From NCBI GenBank assembly GCA_013335095.1, contig JAAXWF010000003.1:69960-133959 (forward strand): 64,000 nt of DNA, in the 5' to 3' direction. A program made the translations under genes and the position numbers. This document shows, in pieces, positions 2,042-49,911 of this stretch (the first letter of the stretch is position 1; every line of letters starts with the position of its first letter). The notes beneath the pieces are model-generated. The model ran no database searches. It was given only the letters and a program-made list of their open reading frames with translations, and had not been told where the DNA came from. Origin of the DNA: a candidate division WWE3 bacterium. Its GTDB lineage: Bacteria; Patescibacteriota; 4484-211; GCA-002791395.

Positions 2042-3141
2042 GAATTTTATATGTTGATCATGCGCCGTACGAAGGGGGAGCCGAAGTCTCGCTCAAACAT
2101 CTTATTGTGCATTTAGATAAAAAGAAGTATCAGGCCATCATCGCTGCTCCCAAAGGTGCGGTGTACTCTGAGCCACTTATTACACATAACGTTCCCTACA
2201 TTCCAATTTCGTTTCATTGGTTGCACTATCATTTGCTTTATCCGATTGTATTGGATGTTATAAATCTGTTGATAATTATTAGAAAGGTTCGTCCAAATAT
2301 AGTGCACTTAAATACGCGGGTAACTAATGTACTAGGAGGAATATTAATTCAATTAAGACCTTTTTTGCCTTTTCTCCAATCAATCCGATTCATCCATCAT
2401 GTTCGAGATAAAGATCCTTTGCCTCAATGGAAATTTAATCTTATCGGTAAAGCCGATTGGCTTATTGCAAATTCTTCTCAAGTTAAAGAGTTTTTAGTTG
2501 AAGGTGGTATCGATGAATCCAAGATTTCTGTGATTTATAACGGTGTCGATCTATCAATTTTCAATCCAGTTAGATTCCCGTGTACCGAAGAATCATTTCC
2601 TAAGATTACTTTTATTGGACAACTATATCCACGAAAGGGTGTTCTGTATCTATTGGAAGCGATGAAGCGAATTGTACAAGTATTCCCCAATGTCCGATTA
2701 GAATTAGCGGGGCAGGATCCTACTCCGCATCAGTCGAACCTGCGTCAATACAAACAATTGGCATCCCAGCTTGGAATCGAGCAATCAATCACTTGGTTAG
2801 GGTATCGTGACGATATCGCCCGGGTTTTGTCGTGTACTGATGTCTTTGTGTTGCCTTCTTTAGAGGAGCCGTTTGGAAGAGTTCTTATAGAAGCAATGGC
2901 CCTTAAAATTCCGGTTGTTGCAACTAGGGTTGGTGGTATTCCCGAGATCGTCGTTGATCAACAGACAGGTCTACTCGTGCCACCATCCAATAGTACTGCT
3001 TTAGCTGACGCAATAATCACACTCCTTGCCAATGATTCCGTTCGAGAATCAATGGGACAATCAGGGTATAATCGTGTTTGCTTACATTTTGATTTAGCCC
3101 GGCATGTTGAGTCTGTGCAAAACCTGTATAATCAGTTGTGA
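2038..3141 (+). CDS. glycosyltransferase family 1 (GT4-type)
   Basis: FGRVLIEAMALKIPVVATRVGGIPEIV motif. ATG at 2038 overlaps the upstream stop (ATGA coupling); the ORF-track start at 2017 is less likely. Confidence 0.7.
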   Translation: MRILYVDHAPYEGGAEVSLKHLIVHLDKKKYQAIIAAPKGAVYSEPLITHNVPYIPISFHWLHYHLLYPIVLDVINLLIIIRKVRPNIVHLNTRVTNVLGGILIQLRPFLPFLQSIRFIHHVRDKDPLPQWKFNLIGKADWLIANSSQVKEFLVEGGIDESKISVIYNGVDLSIFNPVRFPCTEESFPKITFIGQLYPRKGVLYLLEAMKRIVQVFPNVRLELAGQDPTPHQSNLRQYKQLASQLGIEQSITWLGYRDDIARVLSCTDVFVLPSLEEPFGRVLIEAMALKIPVVATRVGGIPEIVVDQQTGLLVPPSNSTALADAIITLLANDSVRESMGQSGYNRVCLHFDLARHVESVQNLYNQL

Positions 3142-4622
3142 TGTTTTCACGTATCTGGATAATAACTGCTATTAATCGTTTTCTAGAGCCAGTATTCAAG
3201 CGATTTGACTTAATATTATTAGGTCTGATCATCCTCATACTCATTCTCCCTAAGTTTCCATTTATTCCTGTAGAGGGCATTTATGTTAATATCCGCATCG
3301 AAGATTTTTTGATTGCTTTTGTGTATATTCTCTGGTTGCTCGGCTACCTTGCCGGGCGGTATCGTATCGGATCAATTTATAATAGTCACGTTATTCTCTT
3401 TTTTCTTGGGTATGGGTTATTGATTACCTTATTAGGGTTAGAGGTTTTGGGTACGATTAGTAATACCAAGGTTGCTCTTTTACATTGGCTCCGACGAGTC
3501 GAGTACATGGGGATATTTTTTGTCGCGGCTACTGTTTTAAGAAAAGAGGGTTTAAAAACCTATATATATGCACTGTTAGGTACGGGTGTTTTTACCTGGA
3601 TTTATGGCTTTCTTCAATGGAAGGATTTGGTTCCAGGGGTTCACACATTAAGCAAATCGGGACAAATTGGTACTTTTTCGGAAATTGGGTATGTCATTTC
3701 TACCTTTGGTGCCCATTATGATTTTGCTGCATTTTTAATTCTGATGATGGTCTTGTCGATTTGGGGGTATTATTCGCATACCAGCCGAAAATATAAAGTT
3801 TTATTCGTATTTTTAGCGTTTGCTTTCTGGTGGATGTCTCGTTTAGTGTATGGTCGTTCGGCGTATTTAGGTATGTTGGTTGCGGCTATTTTTATCTTTT
3901 TAGTTAAGCGGAGTGCGTTTGTCCTTATTCCTGGATGGGAAGTTTTTCAAACGTTTAGTCGGTATTTTGGTGGCCGTTTTAGTAAGTATTCGTACGAATT
4001 TAAGTTTAATATTTTGCCTTCGCCAATGCCCGAACCTACTCTTGTTATTCCAACACCTACAGTTTTACCCACTGATGTCGATTCATTAACGCCGACTCCC
4101 ACACCAAGTGGAGCATTTGGTGCCGGTGTTTCTGAGCAGGCAAAAGCCACCCAGACTTGGCTCGATATCCATACCCATGAATGGTCTCAGATGCTACGCC
4201 AGTATTTACTACGTCTCGATGTTAACTTTGATCCATCAGCTAATATTCGTATAACTTTATGGCAAGATGCATTGGCCAAGGTCGGTTATAACTTTTTGTG
4301 GGGTGGTGGATACTCAATTAACGGGATTGGTACCGATGGCGATTATGTTCGTCATATTGTTGAGGTTGGAGTGATTGGTTTGTCGGTTTTTCTGTTAATC
4401 CTTTTTGATTTTATGCGTATTTCTTGGCGTACATATCGTCAGGAAACTGATTTAGCTACTCGTCATTTTCATCTGGCGATGATTGCATTTATTATCGGGC
4501 TTTTAATTGAGGCTCTGTTTATTGATATTTTTGCCGCATCAAAAATAGCCCTTCTATTTTGGTTTCTCATGGGATTTGTTGCCCTCTATGCTCCTAAACC
4601 GTCAGAACAGGTTGCCAGGTAA
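3138..4622 (+). CDS. polytopic membrane protein, O-antigen ligase / Wzy-like polymerase family, with an internal Pro/Thr-rich linker
   Basis: About 10 predicted TM helices and a periplasmic loop with a PTPTVLPTDVDSLTPTPTPS low-complexity linker. Lies within a GT cluster. Confidence 0.45.
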   Translation: MMFSRIWIITAINRFLEPVFKRFDLILLGLIILILILPKFPFIPVEGIYVNIRIEDFLIAFVYILWLLGYLAGRYRIGSIYNSHVILFFLGYGLLITLLGLEVLGTISNTKVALLHWLRRVEYMGIFFVAATVLRKEGLKTYIYALLGTGVFTWIYGFLQWKDLVPGVHTLSKSGQIGTFSEIGYVISTFGAHYDFAAFLILMMVLSIWGYYSHTSRKYKVLFVFLAFAFWWMSRLVYGRSAYLGMLVAAIFIFLVKRSAFVLIPGWEVFQTFSRYFGGRFSKYSYEFKFNILPSPMPEPTLVIPTPTVLPTDVDSLTPTPTPSGAFGAGVSEQAKATQTWLDIHTHEWSQMLRQYLLRLDVNFDPSANIRITLWQDALAKVGYNFLWGGGYSINGIGTDGDYVRHIVEVGVIGLSVFLLILFDFMRISWRTYRQETDLATRHFHLAMIAFIIGLLIEALFIDIFAASKIALLFWFLMGFVALYAPKPSEQVAR

Positions 4623-4653
4623 CACTATTTCTAATTTTAATAAAAAGTATGAA

Positions 4654-4690
4654 TAAAAAAATGGAGAGCGTCGTTGTGTTGACGCCCTCC
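4654..4690 (-). terminator. rho-independent terminator for the minus-strand gene 4697..5104
   Basis: Hairpin ggagagcgtc/gacgccctcc (4663-4690) directly after the stop. A 7-nt A-run on plus gives the U-run on the minus transcript. Confidence 0.55.
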
Positions 4691-4696
4691 AGCTGC

Positions 4697-5104
4697 TTAG
4701 TTGTCGCGGTTGAGTAGTACCTCAACGGCCCAGATCGGCGGCTCGTTGGAGGGTGATGTATCTGTCATTCGACAGAACAGACACGTACATCCTATGAGGT
4801 GTTTTCCGCGTGGCGGGAGCTGCTCGAGGCGTGCCGGACCGCCGCTTCCGAGCTGTCCGTCGAACACGGGCACAGTACCATCAGGCTTTGAGTAGCCTTC
4901 AGGTACTGCCACCGCCCCTTTTTCGGGGGGGATAAGCGGCGTGGCTTTCACCTTAGCCAGCTGTTCCTGGAAGTTCCAGGGTTTGGGCTGTGGGAAAAAC
5001 CTGTGTTCTGGCAAAAATGCCCACTTAAAAGCGAGCGCCAGGCCTCCGAACGCGATCAGGCCGAGTATGAACCTGATCAGGTCGAACCAAAAAAGTCCGT
5101 CCAA
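4697..5104 (-). CDS. hypothetical membrane-anchored protein (N-terminal TM helix, CxC..C motif); very high GC3 codon usage
   Basis: TTG start at 5104 preceded by strong SD taaggagg. High-GC coding in a low-GC genome. Own terminator downstream. Confidence 0.45.
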   Translation of the reverse strand: MDGLFWFDLIRFILGLIAFGGLALAFKWAFLPEHRFFPQPKPWNFQEQLAKVKATPLIPPEKGAVAVPEGYSKPDGTVPVFDGQLGSGGPARLEQLPPRGKHLIGCTCLFCRMTDTSPSNEPPIWAVEVLLNRDN

Positions 5105-5184
5105 TGTCGGCCTCCTTACGGTTATCCGATATAGCTATATTATACGTTAGTTGAAAAGGTTATTGAGATCTGAGTGGAAATTTA

Positions 5185-5230
5185 GAAAAATAGGGCCGGA
5201 TTTCGTGGTTGTAAACCACGAAACCCGGCC
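5185..5230 (-). terminator. rho-independent terminator of gene 5308..5739 (cassette terminator, copy 1)
   Basis: ggccggatttcgtggtt / aaccacgaaacccggcc stem followed on the minus strand by ctattttt. Confidence 0.6.
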
Positions 5231-5307
5231 GAAGCCGACGACGAACTGATGTGGGCCGTCAAGCGATGTGAACATTGCAGGGTGGTGCAACCCTGCGGGC
5301 TAGGGCG

Positions 5308-5739
5308 TTAGCCGTCAATCCAGACGACGGTCGCCCAACAATTGGCGTACCAGGGGACTCCTAGTAGCCAGCCGTTGCTGAGTGCCTTAGGGCACGCGAC
5401 CGGGTTCCAGCTCCACAGCTGGGTGGTGTTGTAGCTGACATGTCCACACTCTGTGAACTGTCCGTTATAGTAGGCCGTCTCCCATGGCTTGGTCGGGTTA
5501 AAGAAGTTACCCGTCCAGGTGACCTGGGTCGACTGGGCCCCGGGGCAGGCCGAGTAGTGGGCGATGTCCAGCTGCTGATCAGCGGGCTGATCAATCGACG
5601 CCGACATCGGGGCCGAGTTGTCGACCTGCTGGTCGGCCGCGTGGGCCGACTGCGGTGCGAACGAGCCGATCAGGCTGGCGATCACTGCGAGCAGGGTCAC
5701 GAGCTGGGCGAGACGCTTCATGGTGTAGCTGCGCAGCAT
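5308..5739 (-). CDS. small secreted protein, 4 Cys, Trp-rich C-terminus (paralog family member 1)
   Basis: ATG at 5739 with SD aaaggag 6 nt upstream. Sec-type signal peptide MKRLAQLVTLLAVIASLIGSFAPQSAHA. GC3 near saturation. The ORF-track N-terminal extension (TTG at 5862) would bury the signal peptide, so the shorter start is preferred. Confidence 0.6.
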   Translation of the reverse strand: MLRSYTMKRLAQLVTLLAVIASLIGSFAPQSAHAADQQVDNSAPMSASIDQPADQQLDIAHYSACPGAQSTQVTWTGNFFNPTKPWETAYYNGQFTECGHVSYNTTQLWSWNPVACPKALSNGWLLGVPWYANCWATVVWIDG

Positions 5740-5802
5740 ATGCTGCTCCTTTCGTAAAGCTGAAATAAGCTTAGGGGCGTAGTGTGCCCCTCTTCCATAA
5801 AA

Positions 5803-6078
5803 ATCCCGTCCGCTGACTAGCACCATCATCAGGGGGCGGGGTAAAGTTGTTTTGGCTTTCAAAACAACTTAATCCCACCTCCTAACAAAGGGCTAGAAGC
5901 AAGGTAATGCACCAAACTGTCAATGTACAGAATATGAGAATTACTCACATTCATATAATAATGATAGTACTATGGGTTAGGAAAGCAAATGTTTAAGTAT
6001 GAAATTTGTACAATTTATGAAGAAAAATAGGGCCGGATTTCGTGGTTAGACCACGAGATCCGGCCAGTGCCGACGACG
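5803..6078. repeat. ~276-bp noncoding direct repeat, copy 1 (terminator of upstream cassette + AT-rich promoter region + GC-rich leader of downstream cassette)
   Basis: About 95% identical to 6604..6879 by direct comparison of the two stretches. Confidence 0.8.
6022..6065 (-). terminator. rho-independent terminator of gene 6134..6553 (cassette terminator, copy 2)
   Basis: ggccggatttcgtgg / ccacgagatccggcc stem plus U-run on the minus transcript. Confidence 0.6.
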
Positions 6079-6133
6079 TTAGGACGTCAAGCTTTGCGTA
6101 CAGTGCAGGGCGGTGCAACCCTGCCAGGTTAGT

Positions 6134-6553
6134 TTACCACCAGATAGGCTCTTCCCACCAGCAATTGCTCCCCTTCGGGAGCGGTAGCGGGTGACCTTCC
6201 CACCAGCTGGGGCACGGAACGTCATTTGTCCACCACTCTCGGGCCCAGTTTCGGTGACCGCAGTAGATCCAGGTCCGTGTCACTTCGAAGTAGAGGTTGC
6301 TGTTGGCAGCCACGTAGTGACCAGTCCAATGGACTTGCGTTCGTTCCGCAGTTGGGCACTGGGCGTACTTCACCATCTCGTCGCTGGACGAATCCGGCAG
6401 GTCGATGGCAGTACGGCTGATCTGGGTGCTCTTGGCGATCTCGCTATTTGCCGCAGCGGCCTTTTGTGGCGTCGCCAGGCTAATGAGCGTCAGACCGAAG
6501 AGCAAGACGAACAGGGTGGACAGCCTCTTCACGAGGCGCTTGTTGCGCAACAT
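6134..6553 (-). CDS. small secreted protein, 4 Cys, Trp-rich C-terminus (paralog family member 2)
   Basis: SD aaggag 6 nt before the ATG. Signal peptide LSTLFVLLFGLTLISLATPQKAAAA. Shares Y..CP.A..TQV.WTG...CGH...CP...NCW...W with 5308..5739. Confidence 0.6.
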   Translation of the reverse strand: MLRNKRLVKRLSTLFVLLFGLTLISLATPQKAAAANSEIAKSTQISRTAIDLPDSSSDEMVKYAQCPTAERTQVHWTGHYVAANSNLYFEVTRTWIYCGHRNWAREWWTNDVPCPSWWEGHPLPLPKGSNCWWEEPIWW

Positions 6554-6603
6554 TTTGCGCTCCTTCTTAGGTGATTTGGGGCGCTAGAGCCCCGACTTTT
6601 CCT

Positions 6604-6879
6604 ATCCCGTCCGCTGACTAGCACCATCATCAGGGGGCGGGGTAAAGGTGTTTTGGTTTTCAAAACAACTTGATCCCACCTCCTAACAAAGGGCTAGAAG
6701 CAAGGTAATTCACCAAACTGTCAATGTACAGAATATGAGAATTACTCACATTCATATAATAATGATAGTACTATGGGTTAGGAAAGCAAATGTTTGAGTA
6801 TGAAATTTGAACAAAGTGAGAAGAAAAATAGGGCCGGATTTTGTGGTTAGACCACAAAATCCGGCCAGTGCCGACGACG
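6604..6879. repeat. ~276-bp noncoding direct repeat, copy 2
   Basis: See 5803..6078. Confidence 0.8.
6823..6866 (-). terminator. rho-independent terminator of gene 6898..7251 (cassette terminator, copy 3)
   Basis: Perfect stem ggccggattttgtggt / accacaaaatccggcc plus U-run. Confidence 0.6.
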
Positions 6880-6897
6880 GTTAGGCCGTCTGGCCTT

Positions 6898-7251
6898 TTA
6901 CTCGAACCGGTAATACCAGTTATAGTAGATCCCGTCTTGGTAGAGGGATCCTGGGTACTGGTTCCCGGCCAGGTCGAACGTCGGGGGGGTAACCCCGTAG
7001 ACGGGGCCGCTGTGGGCCTTGTGGGGGCCCATCAGCGGGACGGTGATCATAACGCTCGAGCAGTCCGAGCGGATGATTGTACCGATTACGCCACCACTGT
7101 AGAGGTTGATCACGATCTGACAGACCTTTGCCGCCGGGCTGGCGGCGGTGGTCGAGGCCTCGACGTGGGGCGGGTTAACCGCCGTGAAGCCGAGGGACGC
7201 GAGCAGGGCCATGATAATGAGCCAGTGGCTCCAGTGCAGGCGCGGCAACAT
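6898..7251 (-). CDS. small secreted protein (signal peptide, 2 Cys), high GC3
   Basis: SD aaaggagcggcatATG. A cccccatttggggg hairpin sits just upstream of the SD. Hydrophobic N-terminus WLIIMALLASLGFTA. Confidence 0.5.
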   Translation of the reverse strand: MLPRLHWSHWLIIMALLASLGFTAVNPPHVEASTTAASPAAKVCQIVINLYSGGVIGTIIRSDCSSVMITVPLMGPHKAHSGPVYGVTPPTFDLAGNQYPGSLYQDGIYYNWYYRFE

Positions 7252-7491
7252 ATGCCGCTCCTTTCTCCCCCAAATGGGGGTGGTAGGAAGATCCTCCGTG
7301 ACCGGTGTCAGGAGGCATTACTGCTTATTATCCTAATAGTCAGAAATGCCCCCTGAAGAGGTCTTGGATATGTGCCTGGTATGTAAACGTTCGATAGAGG
7401 CATGTAGAACATGCCTATTTCTAGTATAGACCCACTGAGCCTATAGTAAAGTTGATGGGAGATTTAGTTCATTCTTTGTTACAATAGCCAT

Positions 7492-8400
7492 ATGAAGTTG
7501 TCGGTGATCGTTCTTTCATACAATACCCGTGCTCAAACTCGTGATTGTCTGGCATCATTGGTTGGGTTACGTGATGTCTCTATCGGAAAGGATTTTGAAG
7601 TCATCGTTGTTGATAATTTTAGTAGTGACGGTAGTCAGCAAATGATAAAAGATGAATTCCCTCAAGTGACTTTAATCGAACAACGTTCTAATCTCGGATT
7701 TTCTAAAGGTAATAATGTCGGAATCAACTCACTTCATAAGGATAGCCAATATGTTCTGTTTTTGAACCCCGATACAATTGTTCCTTCGGGCACATTAAGC
7801 GAAATGACTAAATTTATGGATGAGAATTTGATGGTAGGTGTGGCTACGTGCAAGGTCCAATTAGCCGATGGGGGTATTGATATGGATTGTCATCGTGGAT
7901 TTCCTCGTCCATGGGTCGCCGCAACTCACTTTGTTGGACTCGATAAGTTATTTCCGAATAATCGGTTAGTATCCGAATATCATTTGGGATGGGAAGATTT
8001 ACAACGTCCTCATGAGATCGGTTCGGCTGTAGGAGCATTTCTTTTTGTCCGTCGTACTATCGGTGATTCAATAAACTGGTTTGATGAAGATTACTTCTTA
8101 AACGGTGAAGATATCGATCTGTGTTACCGAATTCATAAAGCCGGATACTTAGTGATGTATTATCCAAAAGTAACGATTACTCATTTGCGCGGAGTTGCAA
8201 AAGGTACCCGTAAAGAATCAACCCACATAACCAGTGCTGATTATGAACGGAAAAAGATGGTAACTAATGCAACGGTGAATGCAATGCAGCTGTTTTATGA
8301 TAAACACTACCGTAATAAGGATCCAAGATGGAAAAATTTGATCGTTGACGCAGGTATCTTTTTGCTCCGTCAAAAGAGACTGTGGTCTATTCACTCATGA
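7492..8400 (+). CDS. glycosyltransferase family 2
   Basis: N-terminal LSVIVLSYNTRAQTRDCLASL...VIVVDNFSSDGS (GT-A fold, DXD region). Confidence 0.75.
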   Translation: MKLSVIVLSYNTRAQTRDCLASLVGLRDVSIGKDFEVIVVDNFSSDGSQQMIKDEFPQVTLIEQRSNLGFSKGNNVGINSLHKDSQYVLFLNPDTIVPSGTLSEMTKFMDENLMVGVATCKVQLADGGIDMDCHRGFPRPWVAATHFVGLDKLFPNNRLVSEYHLGWEDLQRPHEIGSAVGAFLFVRRTIGDSINWFDEDYFLNGEDIDLCYRIHKAGYLVMYYPKVTITHLRGVAKGTRKESTHITSADYERKKMVTNATVNAMQLFYDKHYRNKDPRWKNLIVDAGIFLLRQKRLWSIHS

Positions 8401-15915: not shown

Positions 15916-16248
15916 CTACGCAGCGTATACATCTTTGTATAACTGCGCAGCTTCAGTTGCGAGCTTTCGACAGCCCGTGACAGCAAGCATCATTGCTTCC
16001 ATATCACGGACAGCCTCCTCAACACACTGCTTTTTGGCCCATTCCTTTCTGTAATAGTTTTTGAGTACCCAAACCGTCGCGTCATGGAACAGGATGAATA
16101 GTTGTGCTGGATTTTCGATCCATTTTCCAGCGTTCTCCATCATCCTTGTCCAAACGATGTCGACCATCACCCCATTGCTTGCTTCTGCGAGCAGGCGACG
16201 AATAGTCGCTCCATCCTCCGGGAGTTGTATCCGGTTGATCTTGGCCAT
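15916..16248 (-). CDS. hypothetical protein
   Basis: ORF of 110 aa with terminator downstream. No recognisable motif. Confidence 0.35.
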   Translation of the reverse strand: MAKINRIQLPEDGATIRRLLAEASNGVMVDIVWTRMMENAGKWIENPAQLFILFHDATVWVLKNYYRKEWAKKQCVEEAVRDMEAMMLAVTGCRKLATEAAQLYKDVYAA

Positions 16249-16357
16249 ATGGCCTCCTGATTATGCCGGTTTGGCCTATAATAATATTATACCTTATTTT
16301 GATCGCTGTTCAATGGTTTCTTGTGCTGTACTAGTCAGACTGAGTACACTTGTTAGT

Positions 16358-16951
16358 ATGATTACGCAAAATGAACGCGGATGGGTAATGAGCCGCTATC
16401 CCTATGGAGAAGGAAGCAGCATGCTGCATGTGTTTACCCGTCAAAGCGGTGTTGTGAGCGTTGTGGCAAAGTCGGTCCGAAAACCATCTTCGCGGCGGGG
16501 TGGGCATGTCGATCTGTTTAATGAAATAGAATGCTCGATTCGGCCATTCGGCGAGGTCTTTGTTTTATCTGAGGTGACTGTGGTGAAAGCATTTGAGAGT
16601 TTAAAACAAGATTTACATAAATTATCGTATCTGTATTACTTTGCCGAGCTTATCGAACTTTTTATTCAACAGGAGTCTGGGCATCATGTATTATATGACA
16701 AGCTGATTTCGGGAATTGAATTTATTGAGAATCACTCGACAAACCACACTCGAAACCTCGATGAAGTCGCCCGGAGATTTGAGATCTACCTGTTAAGATC
16801 TTTGGGTTTTTGGGCTGATGAAGTTCAGGGGAATGACTATCCTACAAACCCTTCTGAACAACAAAAGTATAATCACCAATTAATACGAGAGGTTGTACAT
16901 CGAAACCTTAAGACGCCATCATTTATTGATTTAAATAAAAATAAAAAGTAA
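16358..16951 (+). CDS. recO: DNA repair protein RecO (short form, no zinc-finger C-terminus)
   Basis: N-terminal OB-fold region ERGWVMSRYPYGEGSSMLHVFTRQSGVVSVVAKSVRKPSSRR matches the RecO N-terminus. The ORF-track start at 16061 is antisense-overlapped upstream extension. Confidence 0.55.
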   Translation: MITQNERGWVMSRYPYGEGSSMLHVFTRQSGVVSVVAKSVRKPSSRRGGHVDLFNEIECSIRPFGEVFVLSEVTVVKAFESLKQDLHKLSYLYYFAELIELFIQQESGHHVLYDKLISGIEFIENHSTNHTRNLDEVARRFEIYLLRSLGFWADEVQGNDYPTNPSEQQKYNHQLIREVVHRNLKTPSFIDLNKNKK

Positions 16952-39632: not shown

Positions 39633-40208
39633 ATGAAATTAAACTATCGAACTGCAGCAATCTTCGGCGTATTTCTCGTAAGCATATTAATACTAAGTAT
39701 TGGAATATTATTGAAACTAACGCCACAAGATAAGGCGACTCTAAATACTGTCAACATCACCACATTTACTCGTACATATGATGCATATACAAAGCCTAAT
39801 TTAGATTTAGTTTCGATCACACCGACCCCATTACCTGGTGGAAAACCGTGGTGGCTTCAATCATCTGATCAACCTATTAATGACACTGTTGCATTTGGTC
39901 GTAATCTAGGAACAATGATTTTTGATATTCGTTCAAAAAGCGATTTCGATGCAGATCATCTATCCGGGGCGTTTAGTTTACCTTTTGATGTTATTGTTTC
40001 GGGTACATATTCTATTCCATTATCTGCCGAAGTTATCATGTACGGTGACCGAATCACTTCGGATCAAAAGAATATAATTTCAGAGGCACTATTTTCGAAA
40101 GGGATACGCTCTGCTCAAATAATTGATTCATCGTATTCGGAATTAACCAGCATATTACCCCATGAACCTACAAAAGAAACATTTAAAGAAGATGATACAC
40201 ATGAATAA
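39633..40208 (+). CDS. membrane-anchored rhodanese-like domain protein
   Basis: N-terminal TM helix. Region DIRSKSDFDADHLSGAFSLP resembles a rhodanese active-site neighbourhood. Confidence 0.35.
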   Translation: MKLNYRTAAIFGVFLVSILILSIGILLKLTPQDKATLNTVNITTFTRTYDAYTKPNLDLVSITPTPLPGGKPWWLQSSDQPINDTVAFGRNLGTMIFDIRSKSDFDADHLSGAFSLPFDVIVSGTYSIPLSAEVIMYGDRITSDQKNIISEALFSKGIRSAQIIDSSYSELTSILPHEPTKETFKEDDTHE

Positions 40209-42558
40209 ACTAATACATTTGTTAATTTATTCAGTATTTATTAGTACGTGTATTTTATATATCTTTTGCCCAGCTCTAACCTATGCAGCGCCCACCGCAA
40301 CAAAACGAATCGGAACGTTAAATGGCACTAACTTTGTAGAAAAAAATACCTTTACAGTTGGGGAAAAGGCTACCTACGAATTAACAATTAATGGGCCAGC
40401 TAATTCCACCAGCAGTCGAAGAGTTCCGATGGACGTTATGTTTGTCGTTGATGATTCAGGTAGTACTACAATGGCGAATTGGCCCGGGGCATATTCGTAT
40501 GGTTCTCCAAAACCTCTGGTAATCGAGGTTGCTCAGTACGCCATGAAATCAATGCTTGATATGGCTGATCCAACTATTGATCGATTCGGACTGGTCTACT
40601 TCAAAATGGATGCTAAATTGACCCAACCATTAACAAATGATTTTAATTTACTAAAAAGCAAAATTGATGGTTTGCCGAGGACTGACGGTGGTTCTGATCT
40701 TGGGGAAGGTGCACTTACTGCATCTCAGCATCTCGTTGCTCAATCACGACCAGATGCGTCACGTAATGTTATTTTATTGAGTGATGGAGGGATTACCTGT
40801 TGTGCTCCTTGGACTATTGATCTACTGGATCCATCAGTCACTGATTATCAGATTAATAACGGAATTACTGGTCATAGTGTTGGGATGGGGGCTGGTACCA
40901 TTCAGGTTCCTAATAGTCGGTTTGATGATTATGTGTATACCTGTCCTATTGGCAATGTTCGCGTTCGAAGTGGAGAGGAGTATTTAAAATGTTATTCTCA
41001 AATGACGGGGGGCACGTATACGTATGGACCTGATCCTGATTCTTTTGTGGCGGCATTTCAGGCTATGGTGCAAATAATAAATGAGAATCTGTCGACATCG
41101 GTTGAAGATTATATAAATACAACACATTTTCAAAACCCACGGTTAGTTAGTGTTACTGATTTATATGGCAATACAACATCAGATACCGTAACTATTACGG
41201 GTAATCGTGTTTCAGCTGATTTTGGCAACCTCTCCAGTGGGGATGGGCGTAGAATTTATGTTGAAGCAGATGTTACAGCCGGTTCTACAGGTACTTCATG
41301 GAGCGTCACCGCCGATGCTCAACCAGATAATAGTAATTCGGTGAATTATACGGTTGATACCGGATCGATTCAATCGACAGCAATATTTAATAATCCGCTC
41401 ATTACGGTTCATTACCCGCTACCTGGATCAATAAGTGGACGTGTTTACCTTGATTTAAGTAATAACTGCTCATTAGAAAGCGGTGAAGCTGGTACCAATT
41501 CAGCTAGTCTTCGCCTTGATCAGTTACTACCAAGTTCATGTTCTCCTTCAACGCGAACTACAATACCTGATAGTAGTGGTAATTATACTTTTTCTAACCT
41601 AGACTGTTTTGAACCGAGCGGCGGCGCTACATATCGTCTATTTGTAACTTCAACTAATGCTGATTTCACCACAACAACATGTGGTAATTCATATACGATA
41701 AACCTAAGTCCAGGTGAGGATTATCAGATAAATCCTCCGCTATCCGTACTAAAAGATCCATGGTTCCAATTATCTGGAGGATCTGTGTACGCTCATGGGA
41801 TGATTAACTCTCCAATACCAAATTCGGCGATAGATAAATATATAATCTCTTCAAATGCAACTCTTAGTGCGGGTCATATTGCGACTGACTCGACAATCCA
41901 ACTTGATAATGGAGATATTTCATCGAAGCATTGGAGTACTGTCCCGTATTCTGAAACTATTGCCTCCACAATGATGCCTGACCAGGTTGTATCTATGTTA
42001 CAAAATTATATTGATGATCCCAATTACGATGGGTCTGCACCAAAGGCAGGGGATGCAACTGATGGTATCGCGGTGTATTCATCGAAAAGATCAACCCTGA
42101 CGTTATCTGGAAATTGGCAGCATATTAATTTCCCGGTAATAGTAATTATGGACAGCACTGCTGGCGGCATGGATGTACGTATTCCAAGTTCAATTACCCA
42201 GGGGCATATTAGTTTAAACCAAAAGGGATTTCTCATGATTATTGCTCGGGATATCTTTATCGATTCAGGTCTTGGTGAGGACGATAATAGTTCGACATCG
42301 CCAACCTTAGAGGGACTTTTTATTGCCCGACGTAATTTTGATGCGGGTGGGAGTGGAGATCCAGCCATCGACAAACGATTAAATATCAGTGGTTCTGTTA
42401 TTACCGGAACTGATAGCTTGGGTGGATATACGAGTCAACGCACTCATGAAGAAAATTATTTATATCCAGCCGATTATTTTGTATTTAATCCCAAACTACT
42501 GTTAAATTACCCATCGCAATTGATGCCGTCTCATTATAGTTGGAACGAAGTCCATTGA
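40201..42558 (+). CDS. large secreted surface protein: signal peptide, vWA domain, CnaB/SdrD-B-like domain, conserved C-terminal module
   Basis: Signal peptide MNKLIHLLIYSVFISTCILYIFCPALTYA. MIDAS DxSxS (VVDDSGS). Motif GRVYLDLSNNC…GEAG. About 380 C-terminal aa paralogous to 43116..45863. Confidence 0.6.
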   Translation: MNKLIHLLIYSVFISTCILYIFCPALTYAAPTATKRIGTLNGTNFVEKNTFTVGEKATYELTINGPANSTSSRRVPMDVMFVVDDSGSTTMANWPGAYSYGSPKPLVIEVAQYAMKSMLDMADPTIDRFGLVYFKMDAKLTQPLTNDFNLLKSKIDGLPRTDGGSDLGEGALTASQHLVAQSRPDASRNVILLSDGGITCCAPWTIDLLDPSVTDYQINNGITGHSVGMGAGTIQVPNSRFDDYVYTCPIGNVRVRSGEEYLKCYSQMTGGTYTYGPDPDSFVAAFQAMVQIINENLSTSVEDYINTTHFQNPRLVSVTDLYGNTTSDTVTITGNRVSADFGNLSSGDGRRIYVEADVTAGSTGTSWSVTADAQPDNSNSVNYTVDTGSIQSTAIFNNPLITVHYPLPGSISGRVYLDLSNNCSLESGEAGTNSASLRLDQLLPSSCSPSTRTTIPDSSGNYTFSNLDCFEPSGGATYRLFVTSTNADFTTTTCGNSYTINLSPGEDYQINPPLSVLKDPWFQLSGGSVYAHGMINSPIPNSAIDKYIISSNATLSAGHIATDSTIQLDNGDISSKHWSTVPYSETIASTMMPDQVVSMLQNYIDDPNYDGSAPKAGDATDGIAVYSSKRSTLTLSGNWQHINFPVIVIMDSTAGGMDVRIPSSITQGHISLNQKGFLMIIARDIFIDSGLGEDDNSSTSPTLEGLFIARRNFDAGGSGDPAIDKRLNISGSVITGTDSLGGYTSQRTHEENYLYPADYFVFNPKLLLNYPSQLMPSHYSWNEVH

Positions 42559-42621: not shown

Positions 42622-43122
42622 ATGATAGAAGATATGTTTCGAAACATAACACTTGGATGGAAAAAAGTGCTTGCAATAAGTATTATTGCTGTTTTTATTG
42701 GTGTTTCAGGATATGGCCTCGTAACCTATTTATCACATGAAACTTCAAGGACTATTCAGTTAGACGATGGACAACAGTTACTTGCGGTTCTTCAACATCA
42801 AGCGGTTCCACTCGAATCGACATCAATTGAAAGCGCTGGACTCTTATACTTAATTAGTGGGGTAGTTAATGATGTAACTCCGGCTTACAATGCTAATCAA
42901 CAGGGGATTTCGTTTCACCTTATTGATGGCCAGGGTAATCTCTTACCACCACAATTTATGTTATATGACAGCTCTACATCTATCGTTCATCTCGATAGTC
43001 AGGGAGAAAGCCAAGCCTCGATTAAAGATATTCGTCAAGGTGATGCCGTTAAGGTAAATTATTACGTTGATTTAAAGTCTGGCGAATCGTTGGTTACCAA
43101 AATAGCATTGCTTACATGGTAA
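42622..43122 (+). CDS. hypothetical membrane-anchored protein
   Basis: One TM helix near the N-terminus. Lies between the two giant paralogs. Confidence 0.35.
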   Translation: MIEDMFRNITLGWKKVLAISIIAVFIGVSGYGLVTYLSHETSRTIQLDDGQQLLAVLQHQAVPLESTSIESAGLLYLISGVVNDVTPAYNANQQGISFHLIDGQGNLLPPQFMLYDSSTSIVHLDSQGESQASIKDIRQGDAVKVNYYVDLKSGESLVTKIALLTW

Positions 43123-45863
43123 AGCTCAAGTATTTTCTCCTCCTGTTTTTAATATTAACTCCGATGTTTTTATCTTCGTTTTCTCGTGTAGCCTCTGCTG
43201 CATGTGTTTGTTCTGGCGCGTTTGGGGCATGTTCCTGTTCGAGTTCAGGCTGCAATGGCATACAGGTATGCAATGGAACTGACAATATAACTGGAGCATC
43301 ATGTGTTCTCTCCCAGAGTTGTAATTTACCACCAAATACAAATAGTTGTGATTGTAGTGGTGTTAAATGTAATGGGAGTGGGGAATGTTGGAATTACAGT
43401 AACACGTCATGTACATATCCCAGTCAGTGTACCGGGGCATTGGGGGGGGGGACTGGGTGTCATTATTGCCAGACTCCGCTTGTTACTGCAACACCAGTAC
43501 CAACAACGCCTCCATTATCTGGTTCATGCGGTGGTGGTTGTGGCTTTTGTGAATGGCGTGGTAGTGATGGAGCCTGTCATGGCGGAGCCCGTCCTGGTGG
43601 TGGATGGTGCTGTCATCGTTCTTGTGTAAATGGTACATGCGCAACAGTCGATGGATCTGGTTCCGATTCTTGTGCGTCTAATGGTTCTACATGTGCTATG
43701 CCAACTCCTGGTCCTGGTGTTTGTGTTAATGGTGCTTCATGTAGCTGCTCTGGCGCAAGTGCCGGTCATTGTTCACAGTGTGGTGGCAGTTGGTGCAATG
43801 GTGGCCATTGTAGTTGTGGAGGGAGTGGTGGGTGCTCGACCCAACTGACCTGTTCTAATTTTACTGCAACTGGGCCAAGTGGTACGGTTATTCATGCGAT
43901 ATCACAAGATGATCATAATAAAGGCTATGCAGTCCCTGAATTAATAGTTCGACCAAATGATAATATTCGGTTCTATAACGATATATTTCCAGATGAGCCG
44001 TACGGTATGCGTGGTGAATATAATTGGGGCGATGGTACATCATGTCGTGAATGGTTAGTCGGTAATCATTCATCGCCGCGCGCGGTTTACTTCTGTAATG
44101 CCGGGAAGCTCAATAATGCCTGGTATAACGATGCTAATCTGCCCAACGTTACGATTGCTCCCAAACCGTACCCGTGGTGTGATGAAGACCTTTGGGACTC
44201 CGGCGACTGCGACTGTACTGCTGATGGGCGTACGATGATGTGCTTAATGCATGCCGACGATGGCGTCGCATATCGACGATATGCAGCATCTGGAGTCTAT
44301 TCCGTTGCTTTACGTGCTCAAACAGCATGTGTTTGGGATGATAATAATTCAAATCCGTGTTTATTGAAAATTCGTGTGCAAGCACCTCCAACGATTCCAA
44401 CTGGTCTACAAGTTGTATGTAATAATGGTAGTGGAAACGCTACATTCTCGTGGAACGCATCAACGAACACTGCTCGATATGTATTACGTATAAATAAAGA
44501 ACCAGCCGCCGACTGGGCAAATGTTGCTGCCGGTGATCAGTACATTGAAACCTCGGCAACTTCATATACGACTAATATAACTTTCGGCGATTCATATGCA
44601 TGGTGGAGTGTGCAGCCTGTGGCTGTCGGCGAAATGTATCCGTATTCTTCGACCGCGGCATATAGTGGTGCTTTCGCGTGTCCGAATGTGACACCAACCC
44701 CGCTACCTACCTTAACACCTGTTCCTGCCCAAGTCGGGGGTAATGTTTTCCTTGATATAAGTAATAATTGTATGAAGGATTCGGGTGAACCGGGTTCATC
44801 GGATGCAACGCTTCGATTAGAGCGCCTACTTCCTGGTTCTTGCCCAGCTTATTCACAGAATCAAAATCCAACTGCAAGTGGTACGTATTCATTTACTAAT
44901 TTAAATTGTTTTGATGCCGCTGCGAGTTCGACATACCGATTGCGAGCCAGTACTGCAAATGCTAATTATGAACTACGATGTGGCAATGACCTCAACTTAA
45001 ATGTTATTGGTGGCGCAAATGTTCAGCGCGATTTTGGCTTAACTATCTTACGGGATCCTTGGTTTCAGGCATATAGTGGTGCGATATATGCTGATGGTTC
45101 GATTGACTCAAAGATTCCTGCATCAGCAATAAATCCTCGGTTAGTATATTCTGATATTGTTCATTCTCCAGAGGTTGTGTCTGGGGGCACTATTAATACA
45201 AACAGCGGAACCGTATCATCGACGAATTGGAAGATTTCAAGTTACGCATCTGAGGCTGAATTGCCCGTGAGTATGACGCAAATTATTAAGACATTAACGG
45301 GAAAGGTTGACCGAAATAATTGGAATGGTGCTCCCCCAGTGGCTAGTGATGCGACCGATGGTATCGCCGTATACTATAACAAGGCGGATAATGTGACACT
45401 AAATGGAAATTGGCAGAACATCAATTTTCCTGCAGTTGTTATGGTCGAAGGGACCTCTGCTACTAATGGAAATATTACAATTCCAAATACGATTGTTGGT
45501 CAACGAATTACGCTTGGAGCAAATGGCTTTTTGATGGTTCTTGCGTACAACGATATATTAGTGTCATCTTCGATTGGAGAAATGTTCAATATGTCTAGTA
45601 CTCCAGATTTAGAAGGTCTCTTTATCGCCGGGCGTAATGTGAATGTCGGCGGGACGAATGACCGTCTTGTTGATAAACGTATTAATATCTCCGGTAATGT
45701 TATTACCGGCACTCGGGTTGCGGGTACGTACATCTCAAGGCGTAGTCATGAAGATAACCATCTTTATCCTTCTGACTATTTTATTTACAATCCTAAGTTA
45801 ATACTCAATATCCCACGCATCTTGTCTGATCCCGCATATGAATGGGGCGAACAACTAAAGTAG
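43116..45863 (+). CDS. large secreted cysteine-rich surface protein with FN3-like middle region and the same CnaB-like + C-terminal module as 40201..42558
   Basis: Signal peptide; about 250 aa with >40 Cys. C-terminal region alignable to the vWA paralog (…DPWFQ…SGG.VYA.G.I.S.IP.SAI…ISG.VITGT…YNPKL.LN.P). Confidence 0.6.
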   Translation: MVKLKYFLLLFLILTPMFLSSFSRVASAACVCSGAFGACSCSSSGCNGIQVCNGTDNITGASCVLSQSCNLPPNTNSCDCSGVKCNGSGECWNYSNTSCTYPSQCTGALGGGTGCHYCQTPLVTATPVPTTPPLSGSCGGGCGFCEWRGSDGACHGGARPGGGWCCHRSCVNGTCATVDGSGSDSCASNGSTCAMPTPGPGVCVNGASCSCSGASAGHCSQCGGSWCNGGHCSCGGSGGCSTQLTCSNFTATGPSGTVIHAISQDDHNKGYAVPELIVRPNDNIRFYNDIFPDEPYGMRGEYNWGDGTSCREWLVGNHSSPRAVYFCNAGKLNNAWYNDANLPNVTIAPKPYPWCDEDLWDSGDCDCTADGRTMMCLMHADDGVAYRRYAASGVYSVALRAQTACVWDDNNSNPCLLKIRVQAPPTIPTGLQVVCNNGSGNATFSWNASTNTARYVLRINKEPAADWANVAAGDQYIETSATSYTTNITFGDSYAWWSVQPVAVGEMYPYSSTAAYSGAFACPNVTPTPLPTLTPVPAQVGGNVFLDISNNCMKDSGEPGSSDATLRLERLLPGSCPAYSQNQNPTASGTYSFTNLNCFDAAASSTYRLRASTANANYELRCGNDLNLNVIGGANVQRDFGLTILRDPWFQAYSGAIYADGSIDSKIPASAINPRLVYSDIVHSPEVVSGGTINTNSGTVSSTNWKISSYASEAELPVSMTQIIKTLTGKVDRNNWNGAPPVASDATDGIAVYYNKADNVTLNGNWQNINFPAVVMVEGTSATNGNITIPNTIVGQRITLGANGFLMVLAYNDILVSSSIGEMFNMSSTPDLEGLFIAGRNVNVGGTNDRLVDKRINISGNVITGTRVAGTYISRRSHEDNHLYPSDYFIYNPKLILNIPRILSDPAYEWGEQLK
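43442..43451 (+). repeat. G10 homopolymer tract inside the coding sequence (encodes GGG)
   Basis: ttg-ggggggggg-gact read directly. Sits about 110 codons into the gene. Confidence 0.85.
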
Positions 45864-48210: not shown

Positions 48211-48219
48211 GGAGGCGCT

Positions 48220-49871: not shown

Positions 49872-49911
49872 GGCCGGCACTCCGAAAGGGATGCCGGCCT
49901 TTTCTTTTTTT
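49872..49911 (+). terminator. rho-independent terminator (8-bp GC stem + U-run)
   Basis: ggccggca-ctccgaaaggga-tgccggcc-ttttcttttttt. Confidence 0.65.

What the first reader, a model, noticed from the sequence alone, without database searches (positions are those of the whole stretch)
5803..6879. Noncoding spacers (~276 bp, ~95% identical) are far more conserved than the coding paralogs they separate
The intergenic unit (terminator of one cassette, AT-rich promoter region, GC-rich leader of the next) occurs twice nearly identically at 5803-6078 and 6604-6879. A third partial copy (terminator only) lies at 5185-5260. The proteins between the copies share only roughly 30-35% identity. Conserved flanks around hypervariable secreted-protein genes suggest cassette exchange, gene conversion, or diversifying selection on the proteins, as in polymorphic toxin or variable-antigen loci. 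Within the repeat on the minus strand there is a strong SD (aggaggtggg) with a TTG-initiated short upstream ORF. It is fused in-frame to paralog 1 in copy 1, but out of frame and ending at the start codon of paralog 2 in copy 2. This may be a regulatory leader peptide.
Basis: seen in the sequence. Interest (0 to 1): 0.65.

Follow-up and report, generated by a model that had tools for sequence, protein, structure and literature searches.

The report
Recently homogenised intergenic control module
Two neighbouring, anciently diverged genes for small exported proteins in an uncultivated (WWE3/CPR) bacterium are preceded by a nearly identical 276-base terminator-promoter-leader unit, most likely because one copy was recently pasted over the other by recombination; this is a real but fairly ordinary kind of event, in an oddly GC-rich gene island.

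Summary
Window 5803-6078 and 6604-6879 are 276 nt, ungapped, with 13 differences (95.3%). A partial third copy (terminator only) lies at 5184-5243. An independent k-mer assembly of the source reads breaks exactly where the two copies stop being distinguishable, so this is not an assembly artefact.

All four genes lie on the minus strand in a GC-rich island (GC3 0.63-0.86 against about 0.35 for the genome). The island sits inside a cell-envelope glycosyltransferase cluster of a candidate division WWE3 genome.

On that strand the unit consists of an intrinsic terminator, a 29%-GC core (presumed promoter) and an 80-nt leader hairpin.

Paralogs p1 and p2 share 34% amino-acid and 46% nucleotide identity. 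Third-codon positions are at chance level (dS saturated). The unit is therefore far younger than the gene duplication.

The only outside homolog (P0003) is as distant from p1 and p2 as they are from each other. Its leader shows no sequence similarity to the unit.

Best reading: recent, probably repeated, gene conversion of the regulatory module. Long-term constraint explains it less well.

The proposed leader peptide is not supported. No integron, MITE or shufflon feature is met. Diversifying selection and cassette exchange remain untested.

The parts
5803..6078 (-). Repeat unit copy 1. It lies between p2 (upstream on the minus strand) and p1 (downstream). It holds the terminator of p2, an AT-rich core and the leader hairpin of p1.
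6604..6879 (-). Repeat unit copy 2. It lies between g3 and p2 and is 95.3% identical to copy 1, with 13 mismatches and no gaps.
5184..5243 (-). Partial third copy, covering only the terminator of p1. It is 85-87% identical to the terminator end of the unit.
6031..6065 (-). Intrinsic terminator hairpin of p2: a 16-position stem with one C-A mismatch in the RNA, followed by CUAUUUUUCUUC. Free energy -26.8 kcal/mol.
6832..6866 (-). Intrinsic terminator hairpin of g3: a perfect 16-bp stem plus a U-run, -28.7 kcal/mol. It differs from copy 1 by a compensated C-G to U-A pair change.
5194..5230 (-). Intrinsic terminator hairpin of p1: a 17-bp stem plus a U-run, -31.1 kcal/mol.
5897..6030 (-). AT-rich core of unit copy 1 (29% GC). 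It includes an 85-nt stretch (5910-5994) identical in both copies. It is the presumed promoter region, but the promoter is not located: there is a perfect TTGACA at 5923-5918 with no recognisable -10.
6698..6831 (-). AT-rich core of unit copy 2.
5817..5896 (-). Long imperfect leader hairpin of p1 (-44.1 kcal/mol, z = -7.7). Its 5' arm carries AGGAGGUGGG, paired with CCCCGCCCCCU in the 3' arm.
6618..6697 (-). Long leader hairpin of p2 (-39.2 kcal/mol, z = -7.4).
5308..5739 (-). p1: a 143-aa exported protein with a signal peptide and 4 Cys. GC3 0.82. NCBI locus tag HGA91_04825.
6134..6553 (-). p2: a 139-aa paralog of p1 at 34% identity. GC3 0.76. NCBI locus tag HGA91_04830.
6898..7251 (-). g3: a 117-aa exported protein with no detectable homology to p1 or p2. 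It shares their terminator, distal 3'UTR and SD/start-codon hairpin design. GC3 0.86.
4697..5104 (-). g0: a 135-aa protein with an N-terminal membrane anchor, the last gene of the island. GC3 0.63. It has its own promoter, SD and terminator (4662-4691).
5254..5296 (-). 3'UTR hairpin region of p1 (GCAGGG...CCCTGC). It is 84% identical to the p2 counterpart at 6082-6124 and represents an older layer of noncoding similarity.
6082..6124 (-). 3'UTR hairpin region of p2.
4638..7406 (.). GC-rich island: 54% GC overall, coding parts 57-62%, in a 43% GC window. It interrupts a plus-strand glycosyltransferase / O-antigen-type cluster.

Best explanation
The 276-nt repeat is the complete punctuation module between adjacent minus-strand genes for small exported proteins.

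In the direction of transcription it contains:
1. The last 13 nt of the upstream 3'UTR.
2. A strong intrinsic terminator.
3. A core of about 135 nt at 29% GC, which must carry the promoter of the next gene. This is inferred; the promoter was not located.
4. An 80-nt leader hairpin at the start of that gene's 5'UTR.

The module ends 50-60 nt before the start codon. The gene-proximal leader (a small GC hairpin, the SD and a hairpin around the start codon) is not part of it.

p1 and p2 are old paralogs. Their synonymous sites are saturated, and they are as far from each other as from the only homolog found in another organism. The module copies are only 4.7% diverged, so they must share a much more recent ancestor than the genes do.

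The most likely cause is non-allelic homologous recombination within the tandem array: gene conversion, copying one intergenic region over the other. Older and weaker layers of similarity in the 3'UTRs and terminators of p1, p2 and the unrelated g3 (63-90%) suggest this has happened more than once.

The consequence is that p1 and p2 are terminated, transcribed and led by the same signals, and so are probably co-regulated. In addition, p2 is bracketed by 276-nt direct repeats that could mediate its loss or amplification.

Shown: the repeat, its anatomy, the saturation of the coding divergence, and that the repeat is real in the reads. Inferred: promoter activity, gene conversion as the mechanism, and co-regulation.
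For: Repeat and boundaries:
- 276 nt, 13 mismatches, no gaps.
- The identity profile runs at 93-100% inside the unit and falls to about 55% at 5802/6603.

Coding divergence:
- 34% amino-acid and 46% nucleotide identity. Third-position identity is 36% against 34% by chance; dS = 1.65.
- p1, p2 and P0003 are mutually 33-34% identical.
- The leader of P0003 shows no significant sequence similarity to the unit: the local alignment score lies within the shuffle null, and global identity is 49% against 46 +/- 1.7%. Constraint alone has therefore not preserved this leader over that time span.

Ancestral homology around the tract:
- The proximal 5'UTRs have the same architecture at about 57% identity.
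- The 3'UTR plus terminator are 63-90% identical.
- The 3'UTR of g3 is 70% identical to the distal p2 3'UTR.

Functional signals:
- The terminators are canonical: 16-17 bp GC-rich stems plus a U-run, -27 to -31 kcal/mol.
- With the p1 terminator as outgroup, copy 2 carries a compensated C-G to U-A change.
- The leader hairpins have z-scores of -7.4 and -7.7.

Other support:
- The repeat is genuine in the reads.
- RecO is encoded at 16061-16951, so part of the homologous-recombination machinery is present.
Against: - There are only two full copies, and no population or sister-genome data, so conversion is inferred from pattern alone.
- The direction and number of events are unknown.
- The promoter could not be identified with a sigma-70 consensus on the minus strand.
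- The outgroup argument assumes that the L002 leader is homologous to the window leaders. They share only architecture and a short CTAGCnCTTT(T)GTT motif at the hairpin base.
- A single recombinational insertion of a p2-plus-unit cassette would leave the same two direct repeats.
Confidence: 0.6

Rival explanations
1. Cassette gain by recombination. An 801-bp segment (p2 plus one unit) entered, or can leave, by a single crossover within the unit: Campbell-type integration or loop-out between homologous units, for example after DNA uptake from another strain. The two direct repeats would be the footprint and the handle of cassette exchange, not the product of conversion between resident sequences.
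For: - The repeats are direct, 801 nt apart, and bracket exactly one gene.
- An 85-nt perfectly identical core (5910-5994) is flanked by clusters of differences, as expected around a crossover point.
- The unrelated gene g3 carries the same terminator.
- GC-rich ORFs alternate with an AT-rich unit, which looks modular.
- The only outside homolog is likewise a GC-rich ORF pair set in AT-rich DNA, next to a Mutator-family transposase.
Against: - Sequences just outside the unit still look like old in-situ paralogs: the proximal leader at about 57% with the same hairpin/SD design, and the p1/p2 3'UTRs at 84%.
- No variant lacking p2, and no other genome carrying the unit, was found.
- No recombinase or transposase lies in the window.
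Confidence: 0.2
2. Long-term purifying selection. The whole 276 nt is a functional noncoding element, for example a regulatory RNA or leader plus protein-binding sites, that has stayed about 95% identical since the p1/p2 duplication.
For: - The RNA structure is strong (z about -7.5 to -9).
- The terminator carries a compensated pair change.
- A perfect 11-bp inverted repeat (AAGTTGTTTTG/CAAAACAACTT) could serve as an operator.
Against: - Synonymous sites are saturated, while 85 consecutive nt of the unstructured AT-rich core are 100% identical.
- The leader of the equidistant homolog P0003 has no sequence similarity to the unit.
- Substitutions in the leader hairpin of copy 2 weaken it and are not compensated (-39.2 against -44.1 kcal/mol).
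- There is no Rfam match.
Confidence: 0.1
3. A small non-autonomous mobile element (MITE/Correia-like, or an integron attC-like site) that inserted twice.
For: - The ends are discrete in ungapped register.
- The unit carries outward-facing signals (terminator and promoter region), as Correia elements do. That comparison rests on my own knowledge.
- A CCTAAC...GTTAGG complement 191 nt apart recalls integron core sites.
Against: - There are no terminal inverted repeats beyond an 11-nt, 82% match present in one copy only.
- There is no target-site duplication: the flanks are ATAAAA/TTAGGA and TTTCCT/GTTAGG.
- Only two copies occur in 64 kb plus 5.3 kb of extension.
- No real copy turned up in the other collections. 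The terminator pattern gave one unrelated hit in genome contigs and none in viral contigs. The leader pattern gave none in metagenome contigs or viral contigs. blastn of the unit gave none in phages or plasmids.
- The unit folds into two separate hairpins, not one attC-like bulged hairpin of 57-141 nt.
- No integrase lies in the window.
Confidence: 0.05
4. The AGGAGG-TTG upstream ORF encodes a regulatory leader peptide.
For: AGGAGGTG lies 10 nt before a TTG, and the ORF is open in both copies.
Against: - The SD and the TTG are sequestered in the hairpin stem.
- Both substitutions in the shared 20 codons are non-synonymous.
- The frame relative to the downstream gene and the peptide tails are not conserved.
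- The L002 leader has no SD in front of its in-frame TTG.
Confidence: 0.05

Closest known systems
Concerted evolution by ectopic gene conversion confined to the noncoding flanks or promoters of tandem paralogs (for example the HMA4 promoter regions of Arabidopsis halleri, PMC3749932; conversion between E. coli rRNA operons, PMC8022953)
   Same: A tract of near-identity with sharp edges lies inside otherwise diverged tandem duplicates. The tract covers regulatory DNA. The copies are direct and close together.
   Different: The coding parts here are saturated (34% amino-acid identity), so the contrast is extreme. The tract is a whole terminator-promoter-leader module. The host is a CPR bacterium and the genes are orphans. 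Conversion is inferred, not demonstrated.
Mycoplasma vpma/vsp/vsa variable surface lipoprotein loci (PMC2268961)
   Same: A cluster of genes for exported proteins with very different mature parts but a highly conserved 5' untranslated region. In that system the conserved 5'UTR is the recombination substrate.
   Different: In those loci the conserved block also includes the signal peptide, the genes lie in both orientations, a tyrosine recombinase (Xer1/Mbr/HvsR) is adjacent, and only one promoter serves the locus. Here all genes are co-oriented, each has its own unit, the signal-peptide DNA is diverged (about 50-60% identity), and no recombinase is present.
Integron cassette arrays with near-identical attC sites (for example Vibrio VCRs; from my own knowledge)
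   Same: Co-oriented small genes of dissimilar sequence are separated by a conserved, hairpin-forming noncoding repeat.
   Different: There is no intI and no attC architecture (R''/L''/L'/R' in a single bulged hairpin of 57-141 nt). The hairpins here are a canonical terminator and a leader stem, and the unit carries an AT-rich promoter-like core.
Correia/NEMIS and other intergenic MITEs that supply promoters, terminators and RNase III sites (from my own knowledge)
   Same: An intergenic repeat carrying transcription signals and long RNA hairpins.
   Different: There are no terminal inverted repeats, no target duplication and only two copies.

Membership tests
Gene-conversion tract between tandem paralogs | A long run of near-identity with abrupt edges, embedded in an alignment of much more diverged paralogous sequence | tested here: met
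   Identity is 93-100% across the 276 nt. It is about 55% from 5802/6603 onward and 46% in the coding sequence, with third positions at chance level.
Gene-conversion tract between tandem paralogs | The sequence flanking the tract is homologous but older, so the tract overwrote resident homologs | tested here: inconclusive
   The proximal leader is about 57% identical with the same hairpin/SD layout. The 3'UTRs are 84% identical. The terminators are 81-100% identical. This is suggestive, but the segments are short.
Gene-conversion tract between tandem paralogs | An outgroup shows that the copies are more alike within the genome than orthologs are between genomes | tested here: inconclusive
   Only one outside homolog exists (P0003, locus L002). 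Its leader has no sequence similarity to the unit, but homology of that leader is not established.
Gene-conversion tract between tandem paralogs | Homologous-recombination machinery is present | tested here: inconclusive
   RecO is encoded at 16061-16951. RecA is not in this window, and the rest of the genome could not be read.
Rho-independent (intrinsic) terminator | A GC-rich stem-loop followed directly by a U-run on the transcribed strand, downstream of a stop codon | tested here: met
   The minus-strand hairpins at 6866-6832 and 5230-5194 were flagged by the scan. All three hairpins fold at -26.8 to -31.1 kcal/mol and are followed by CUAUUUUUCU. One compensated pair change is present.
Integron cassette array / attC site | An integron integrase (intI, a tyrosine recombinase) next to the array | tested here: not met
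   No Phage_integrase or other recombinase Pfam hit occurs in the ORFs scanned, nearly all those of at least 90 aa in the window, or in the 5.3 kb beyond its left end. A CALIN-type array lacking an integrase is not excluded by this test alone.
Integron cassette array / attC site | attC: a 57-141 nt imperfect palindrome with R''(RYYYAAC)/L''...L'/R'(GTTRRRY) forming one bulged hairpin | tested here: not met
   The unit is 276 nt and folds into two independent hairpins. The only core-like match is CCTAAC/GTTAGG, 191 nt apart: 10 nt at 90% in copy 1 and 6 nt in copy 2.
MITE / Correia-like element | Terminal inverted repeats and a target-site duplication | tested here: not met
   A seed-6 inverted-repeat search finds no terminal inverted repeats. 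The flanking hexamers differ.
MITE / Correia-like element | Multiple dispersed copies | tested here: inconclusive
   No further copy occurs in the window or in the 5.3 kb of extension held in L007; L006 lies wholly inside the window. The other collections gave one unrelated hit and otherwise none. The remaining roughly 200 kb of the contig and the rest of the genome could not be searched.
Site-specific inversion shufflon (vpma/vsp/vsa type) | An adjacent recombinase, genes in opposite orientations, a single promoter, and a conserved 5'UTR plus signal peptide | tested here: not met
   Only the conserved 5'UTR is present. All four genes are on one strand, there is no recombinase, and the signal-peptide DNA is about 50-60% identical.
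Leader-peptide attenuator | A translated upstream ORF whose peptide or frame is conserved and which is coupled to an alternative structure | tested here: not met
   Both substitutions are non-synonymous. The frame and end differ between copies. The SD and start lie inside the stem. Translation itself is not testable here.
Known RNA families (Rfam 15) | A covariance-model match at or above the gathering score | tested here: not met
   Only two tRNAs are found in the window. Nothing above noise lies in 4600-7500 at E<=1.
Known protein families for p1/p2/g3/g0 | A profile match in Pfam, NCBIfam, PADLOC or PDB sequences | tested here: not met
   Searches gave no match. The family has 3 credible members; a fourth, unrelated repeat-protein hit (P0004, E 1.6e-4) is likely spurious. 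This is out of 1.84 billion representatives and 5.8 billion clusters.

The most novel reading that the evidence does not exclude
The island may be a recombinase-independent cassette array. ORFs for exported proteins with foreign-looking composition are plugged between copies of a native-looking AT-rich terminator-promoter-leader adaptor. These ORFs have GC3 of 0.72-0.88 and sit with sharp ORF-level boundaries in two unrelated AT-rich genomes whose other genes have GC3 of 0.32-0.40. The adaptor would both express the ORFs and serve as the homology handle for gaining, losing and swapping cassettes between strains. That would be a way for a reduced CPR symbiont to domesticate and shuffle acquired effector genes.
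Probability: 0.12. Interest if true: 0.75.

Novelty: new member of a known kind. Interest (0 to 1): 0.4.

Why it matters
This is a clean, well-delimited example of regulatory DNA being homogenised between old paralogs in a CPR bacterium. Almost nothing is known about promoters, leaders or recombination dynamics in that group. The unit provides a candidate promoter/leader module and three related terminators that can be tested directly.

The more curious point is compositional. This orphan family of exported-protein genes keeps a GC3 of about 0.8 inside AT-rich genomes in two independent contexts, and no GC-rich donor is known. If that reflects a shuttling cassette pool rather than chance transfer, it would bear on how episymbiotic CPR bacteria acquire and vary their secreted proteins.

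As it stands, the finding is real and tidy but mechanistically ordinary.

Tried and rejected
Searches for further copies of the unit:
- The terminator pattern in genome contigs gave one unrelated hit, in a Lichenihabitans MAG. The source genome is evidently not in that collection.
- The leader pattern in metagenome contigs gave nothing.
- The terminator and leader patterns in viral contigs gave nothing.
- blastn of the unit against phages and plasmids gave nothing.

Searches for protein relatives:
- Word-indexed searches with p2 and p1 found only themselves; the search with the 3-sequence profile found only its three members.
- The exhaustive profile search added one real relative, P0003. It also gave one repeat-protein hit that is likely spurious, P0004.
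- Back-translated scans of JGI metagenomes and of viral contigs found no relatives.
- tblastn against phages and plasmids found nothing.

Protein function:
- No Pfam, NCBIfam, PADLOC or PDB-sequence hit.
- The AlphaFold2 model from a 3-sequence alignment has pLDDT 49, so no fold search was run.

Promoter:
- The sigma-70 scan found no minus-strand site in the unit. The only hits there are on the plus strand (ATGAGA-17-AATAAT at 5934-5962 and 6735-6763). The small plus-strand ORF downstream of them is not conserved between copies: 13 aa against 6 aa, read directly from the sequence.

Other tests:
- Homology of g3 and g0 to the p1/p2 family was rejected.
- Integron, MITE, shufflon and leader-peptide readings were each tested and not met (see the membership table).
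- An exact look-up of p2 in the contig collection failed. The flanking genes did give Logan contigs, which proved useful as an assembly control.
- Literature searches found no report of this family, or of GC-rich secreted-protein islands in WWE3.
Full report
**Observation.** The repeat exists exactly as described. Window 5803-6078 and 6604-6879 align without gaps over 276 nt with 13 mismatches (95.3%; blastn E = 8e-126). In ungapped register the identity drops to background immediately outside both ends.

A partial copy at 5184-5243 (60 nt, 85-87%) corresponds to the terminator end of the unit only. No other copy occurs in the 64-kb window (blastn with word size 7, E<=1).

The two genes share 34% amino-acid identity. 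In a codon alignment they are 46% identical at the nucleotide level. Third positions are 36% identical, against 34% expected from composition alone. dN is 0.83 and dS is 1.65, which means saturated.

**Not an artefact.** The window comes from a candidate division WWE3 (CPR) MAG, locus tags HGA91_048xx, on a 260-kb contig. Two contigs from an independent Logan assembly of run SRR11449211 match the window with zero mismatches. One ends at 5832 and the other begins at 6766.

Those points are 5802+30 and 6796-30. They are the last 31-mers that still contain a base specific to one copy. This is how a k=31 graph must break if both copies, with their differences, are present in the reads. The same contigs join the GC-rich genes physically to the AT-rich flanking genes, so the island is not a binning or chimera artefact.

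**Context.** The window is ordinary chromosome. Besides the genes around the island, it holds:
- glycosyltransferases, an O-antigen-ligase-like membrane protein, UbiA and Bac_transf genes;
- RecO and a class II tRNA synthetase;
- a cell-division and cell-wall cluster (MraZ, RsmH/MraW, a penicillin-binding protein, FtsW, FtsA, FtsZ and neighbours);
- ribonucleotide reductase, SHMT, ThyA/DHFR and CTP synthase.

Overall GC is 43%, and GC3 of typical genes is 0.30-0.40.

Between the ligase-like gene (3138-4622, +) and a GT2 gene (7492-8400, +) lies a 2.8-kb island (4638-7406). It holds four small genes, all on the minus strand:

| Gene | Coordinates | Length | GC3 |
|---|---|---|---|
| g3 | 6898-7251 | 117 aa | 0.86 |
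| p2 | 6134-6553 | 139 aa | 0.76 |
| p1 | 5308-5739 | 143 aa | 0.82 |
| g0 | 4697-5104 | 135 aa | 0.63 |

. g3, p2 and p1 have typical Sec signal peptides with AXA-type cleavage motifs; g0 has an N-terminal membrane helix. This is read from the translations. p1 and p2 share four cysteines and the motif TQVxWTG. g3 and g0 are not detectably related to them.

**Anatomy of the unit, in the direction of transcription (minus strand).**
1. Thirteen nt of the upstream 3'UTR (CGUCGUCGGCACU).
2. A 16-position GC-rich hairpin followed by CUAUUUUUCUUC, which is a textbook intrinsic terminator. The hairpins at 6866-6832 and 5230-5194 were flagged by the scan. The three terminators fold at -26.8, -28.7 and -31.1 kcal/mol.
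3. A core of about 135 nt at 29% GC. It contains a small AU hairpin and a perfect TTGACA, but no convincing -10, so the promoter is inferred and not located.
4. An 80-nt imperfect hairpin (5896-5817 and 6697-6618). Its free energy is -44.1 and -39.2 kcal/mol, with z = -7.7 and -7.4. In it, AGGAGGUGGG pairs with CCCCGCCCCCU.
5. The sequence GAUGAUGGUGCUAGUCAGCGGACGGGAU, whose first part (through GCUAG) forms the 3' side of that hairpin's basal stem, where the unit ends.

The gene-proximal 50-60 nt of each leader lie outside the unit. They contain a short GC hairpin, the SD GAAAGGAG/AGAAGGAG and the ATG. They are only about 57% identical between p1 and p2, though built the same way.

Using the p1 terminator as outgroup, copy 2 has changed a C-G pair to U-A on both sides (6842 and 6856, the copy-2 counterparts of 6041 and 6055). 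This is a compensated change that argues the hairpin is under selection.

**Why the unit is so similar.** A divergence of 4.7% beside synonymous sites that are fully randomised means the two unit copies share an ancestor far more recent than the genes do.

Long-term constraint is a poor explanation, for three reasons:
- 85 consecutive bases of the unstructured AT-rich core are identical (5910-5994).
- The substitutions in the leader hairpin of copy 2 are uncompensated and weaken it.
- The one homolog found anywhere else provides a calibration, described next.

That homolog is P0003, 122 aa, found in Logan assemblies of four other runs (loci L002-L005). It is as distant from p1 and p2 (33-34%) as they are from each other. 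Its upstream region has the same architecture: a long hairpin with z = -7.9, then small GC hairpins, then GAAAGGAG. But it has no significant sequence similarity to the unit. The local alignment score lies within the shuffle null, and global identity is 49% against 46 +/- 1.7%.

The sequences bordering the tract look like old, diverged homologs. The p1/p2 3'UTR hairpins are 84% identical. The three terminators are 81-100% identical over their aligned segments. The short 3'UTR of g3 is 70% identical to the distal 3'UTR of p2. This layering is what repeated gene conversion within a tandem array would produce.

I therefore favour recent non-allelic gene conversion of the whole terminator-promoter-leader module (confidence about 0.6). 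The practical consequence is that p1 and p2 share their expression signals. RecO is encoded in the window; RecA could not be checked.

**Rivals.** A single-crossover insertion or loop-out of an 801-bp 'p2 + unit' cassette would leave the same pair of direct repeats. It also fits the modular alternation of GC-rich ORFs with an AT-rich unit. I cannot exclude it (about 0.2), but the old homology just outside the unit argues for resident paralogs.

A mobile element is unlikely:
- There are no terminal inverted repeats and no target duplication.
- There are only two copies.
- Searches of the other collections gave one unrelated hit and otherwise none.

An integron-like reading fails on both defining features. 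There is no integrase in the window. There is also no attC architecture: two independent hairpins in 276 nt, and only a CCTAAC/GTTAGG complement 191 nt apart.

A vpma/vsp-type shufflon shares the conserved 5'UTR idea (PMC2268961). It needs a recombinase, inverted genes and a conserved signal peptide, none of which is present.

**The upstream ORF.** The ORFs exist: TTG at 5862, in frame with p1, and TTG at 6663, out of frame and ending 20 nt past the p2 ATG. Against a leader peptide:
- Both the AGGAGG and the TTG are buried in the leader stem.
- The two substitutions in the shared 20 codons are both non-synonymous: LKAKTTLPRP... against LKTKTPLPRP....
- The tails differ completely between the copies.

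I regard it as a by-product of a stop-poor, GC-rich stem.

**What remains unexplained.** The ORFs of this island, and P0003 with its neighbour gene in L002, have GC3 of 0.72-0.88. This holds in two unrelated AT-rich contexts, where flanking genes have GC3 of 0.32-0.40. The composition switches at the ORF and leader boundaries.

Transfer from a GC-rich donor is the simplest idea. However, no GC-rich homolog turned up among 1.84 billion representative proteins, and the spacers between the ORFs are AT-rich. The function of the proteins is unknown. There are no family, defence or structure matches, and the AF2 model is unusable at pLDDT 49.

**Verdict.** The most likely mechanism, gene conversion of a regulatory intergenic module between tandem paralogs, is a known kind of event, seen here in a new setting. 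Interest is moderate (0.4). It comes mostly from the CPR context, the usable candidate promoter/leader/terminator set, and the unexplained GC-rich cassette-like composition.

Noticed in passing
window 5733-5746, 6545-6560, 7242-7258 (minus strand): In p1, p2 and the unrelated g3, the ATG sits in the loop of a 5-6 bp GC hairpin directly after the SD. The stems differ by compensated changes: GCAGCA/TGCTGC, GCGCAA/TTGCGC and GCGGCA/TGCCGC. The free energies are -8.4, -8.7 and -16.2 kcal/mol. This may be a translation-initiation control shared by the island genes. It is absent from the L002 homolog.
   Followed up: partly
window 4638-7406; L002 805-1515: The small exported-protein ORFs have GC3 of 0.63-0.88. 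They sit inside genomes whose other genes have GC3 of 0.30-0.40, and the composition switches at ORF boundaries. The pattern appears in two unrelated contigs. In L002 the ORF pair lies next to a Mutator-family transposase. No GC-rich donor homolog was found.
   Followed up: partly
window 5884-5896 and 6685-6697 (minus strand); L002 667-681: The motif CTAGCnCTTT(T)GTT sits at the 5' base of the long leader hairpin in both the window units and the otherwise dissimilar L002 leader. It could be a transcription start, an operator or a processing signal. On sequence statistics alone it is not significant.
   Followed up: partly
window 58274-61066 (+): A 930-aa protein whose N-terminus looks PHP-like (by eye; no Pfam PHP hit) has AAA/SMC-type ATPase domains. 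It matches the PADLOC Ppl anti-phage defence model (E = 4e-38) and, more weakly, LmuB, AriA and GajA.
   Followed up: partly
window 56445-56951 (+): This gene encodes an Imm5-like immunity protein (Pfam PF21805, E = 2.5e-36). It is moderately GC-rich (52%). No toxin gene was recognised next to it.
   Followed up: no
window 47287-49177 (+) and 49910-51414 (-): This is a second island of raised GC (0.47-0.54). It carries thymidylate synthase, DHFR, a HIT-family protein, a dCMP deaminase and a cytidylyltransferase. It is probably a horizontally acquired nucleotide-metabolism block.
   Followed up: no
window 43116-45863 (+) and 40162-42558 (+): These are two large exported proteins. One is 915 aa, with a Cys/Ser/Gly-rich N-terminus (AACVCSGAFGACSCSSSG) and only a sub-threshold SdrD_B hit. 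The other is 798 aa with a VWA domain. They may be surface or adhesion proteins.
   Followed up: no
window 7455-7494 (+): The GT2 gene at 7492 has TACAAT only 6 nt before its ATG and no SD. This suggests a leaderless mRNA, in contrast to the long structured leaders of the island genes.
   Followed up: no
window 5934-5962 and 6735-6763 (+): The only sigma-70-like matches inside the unit are on the plus strand (ATGAGA-17-AATAAT). They would drive transcription antisense to the 3' ends of p2 and g3. The small plus-strand ORF downstream of them is not conserved between the copies.
   Followed up: partly
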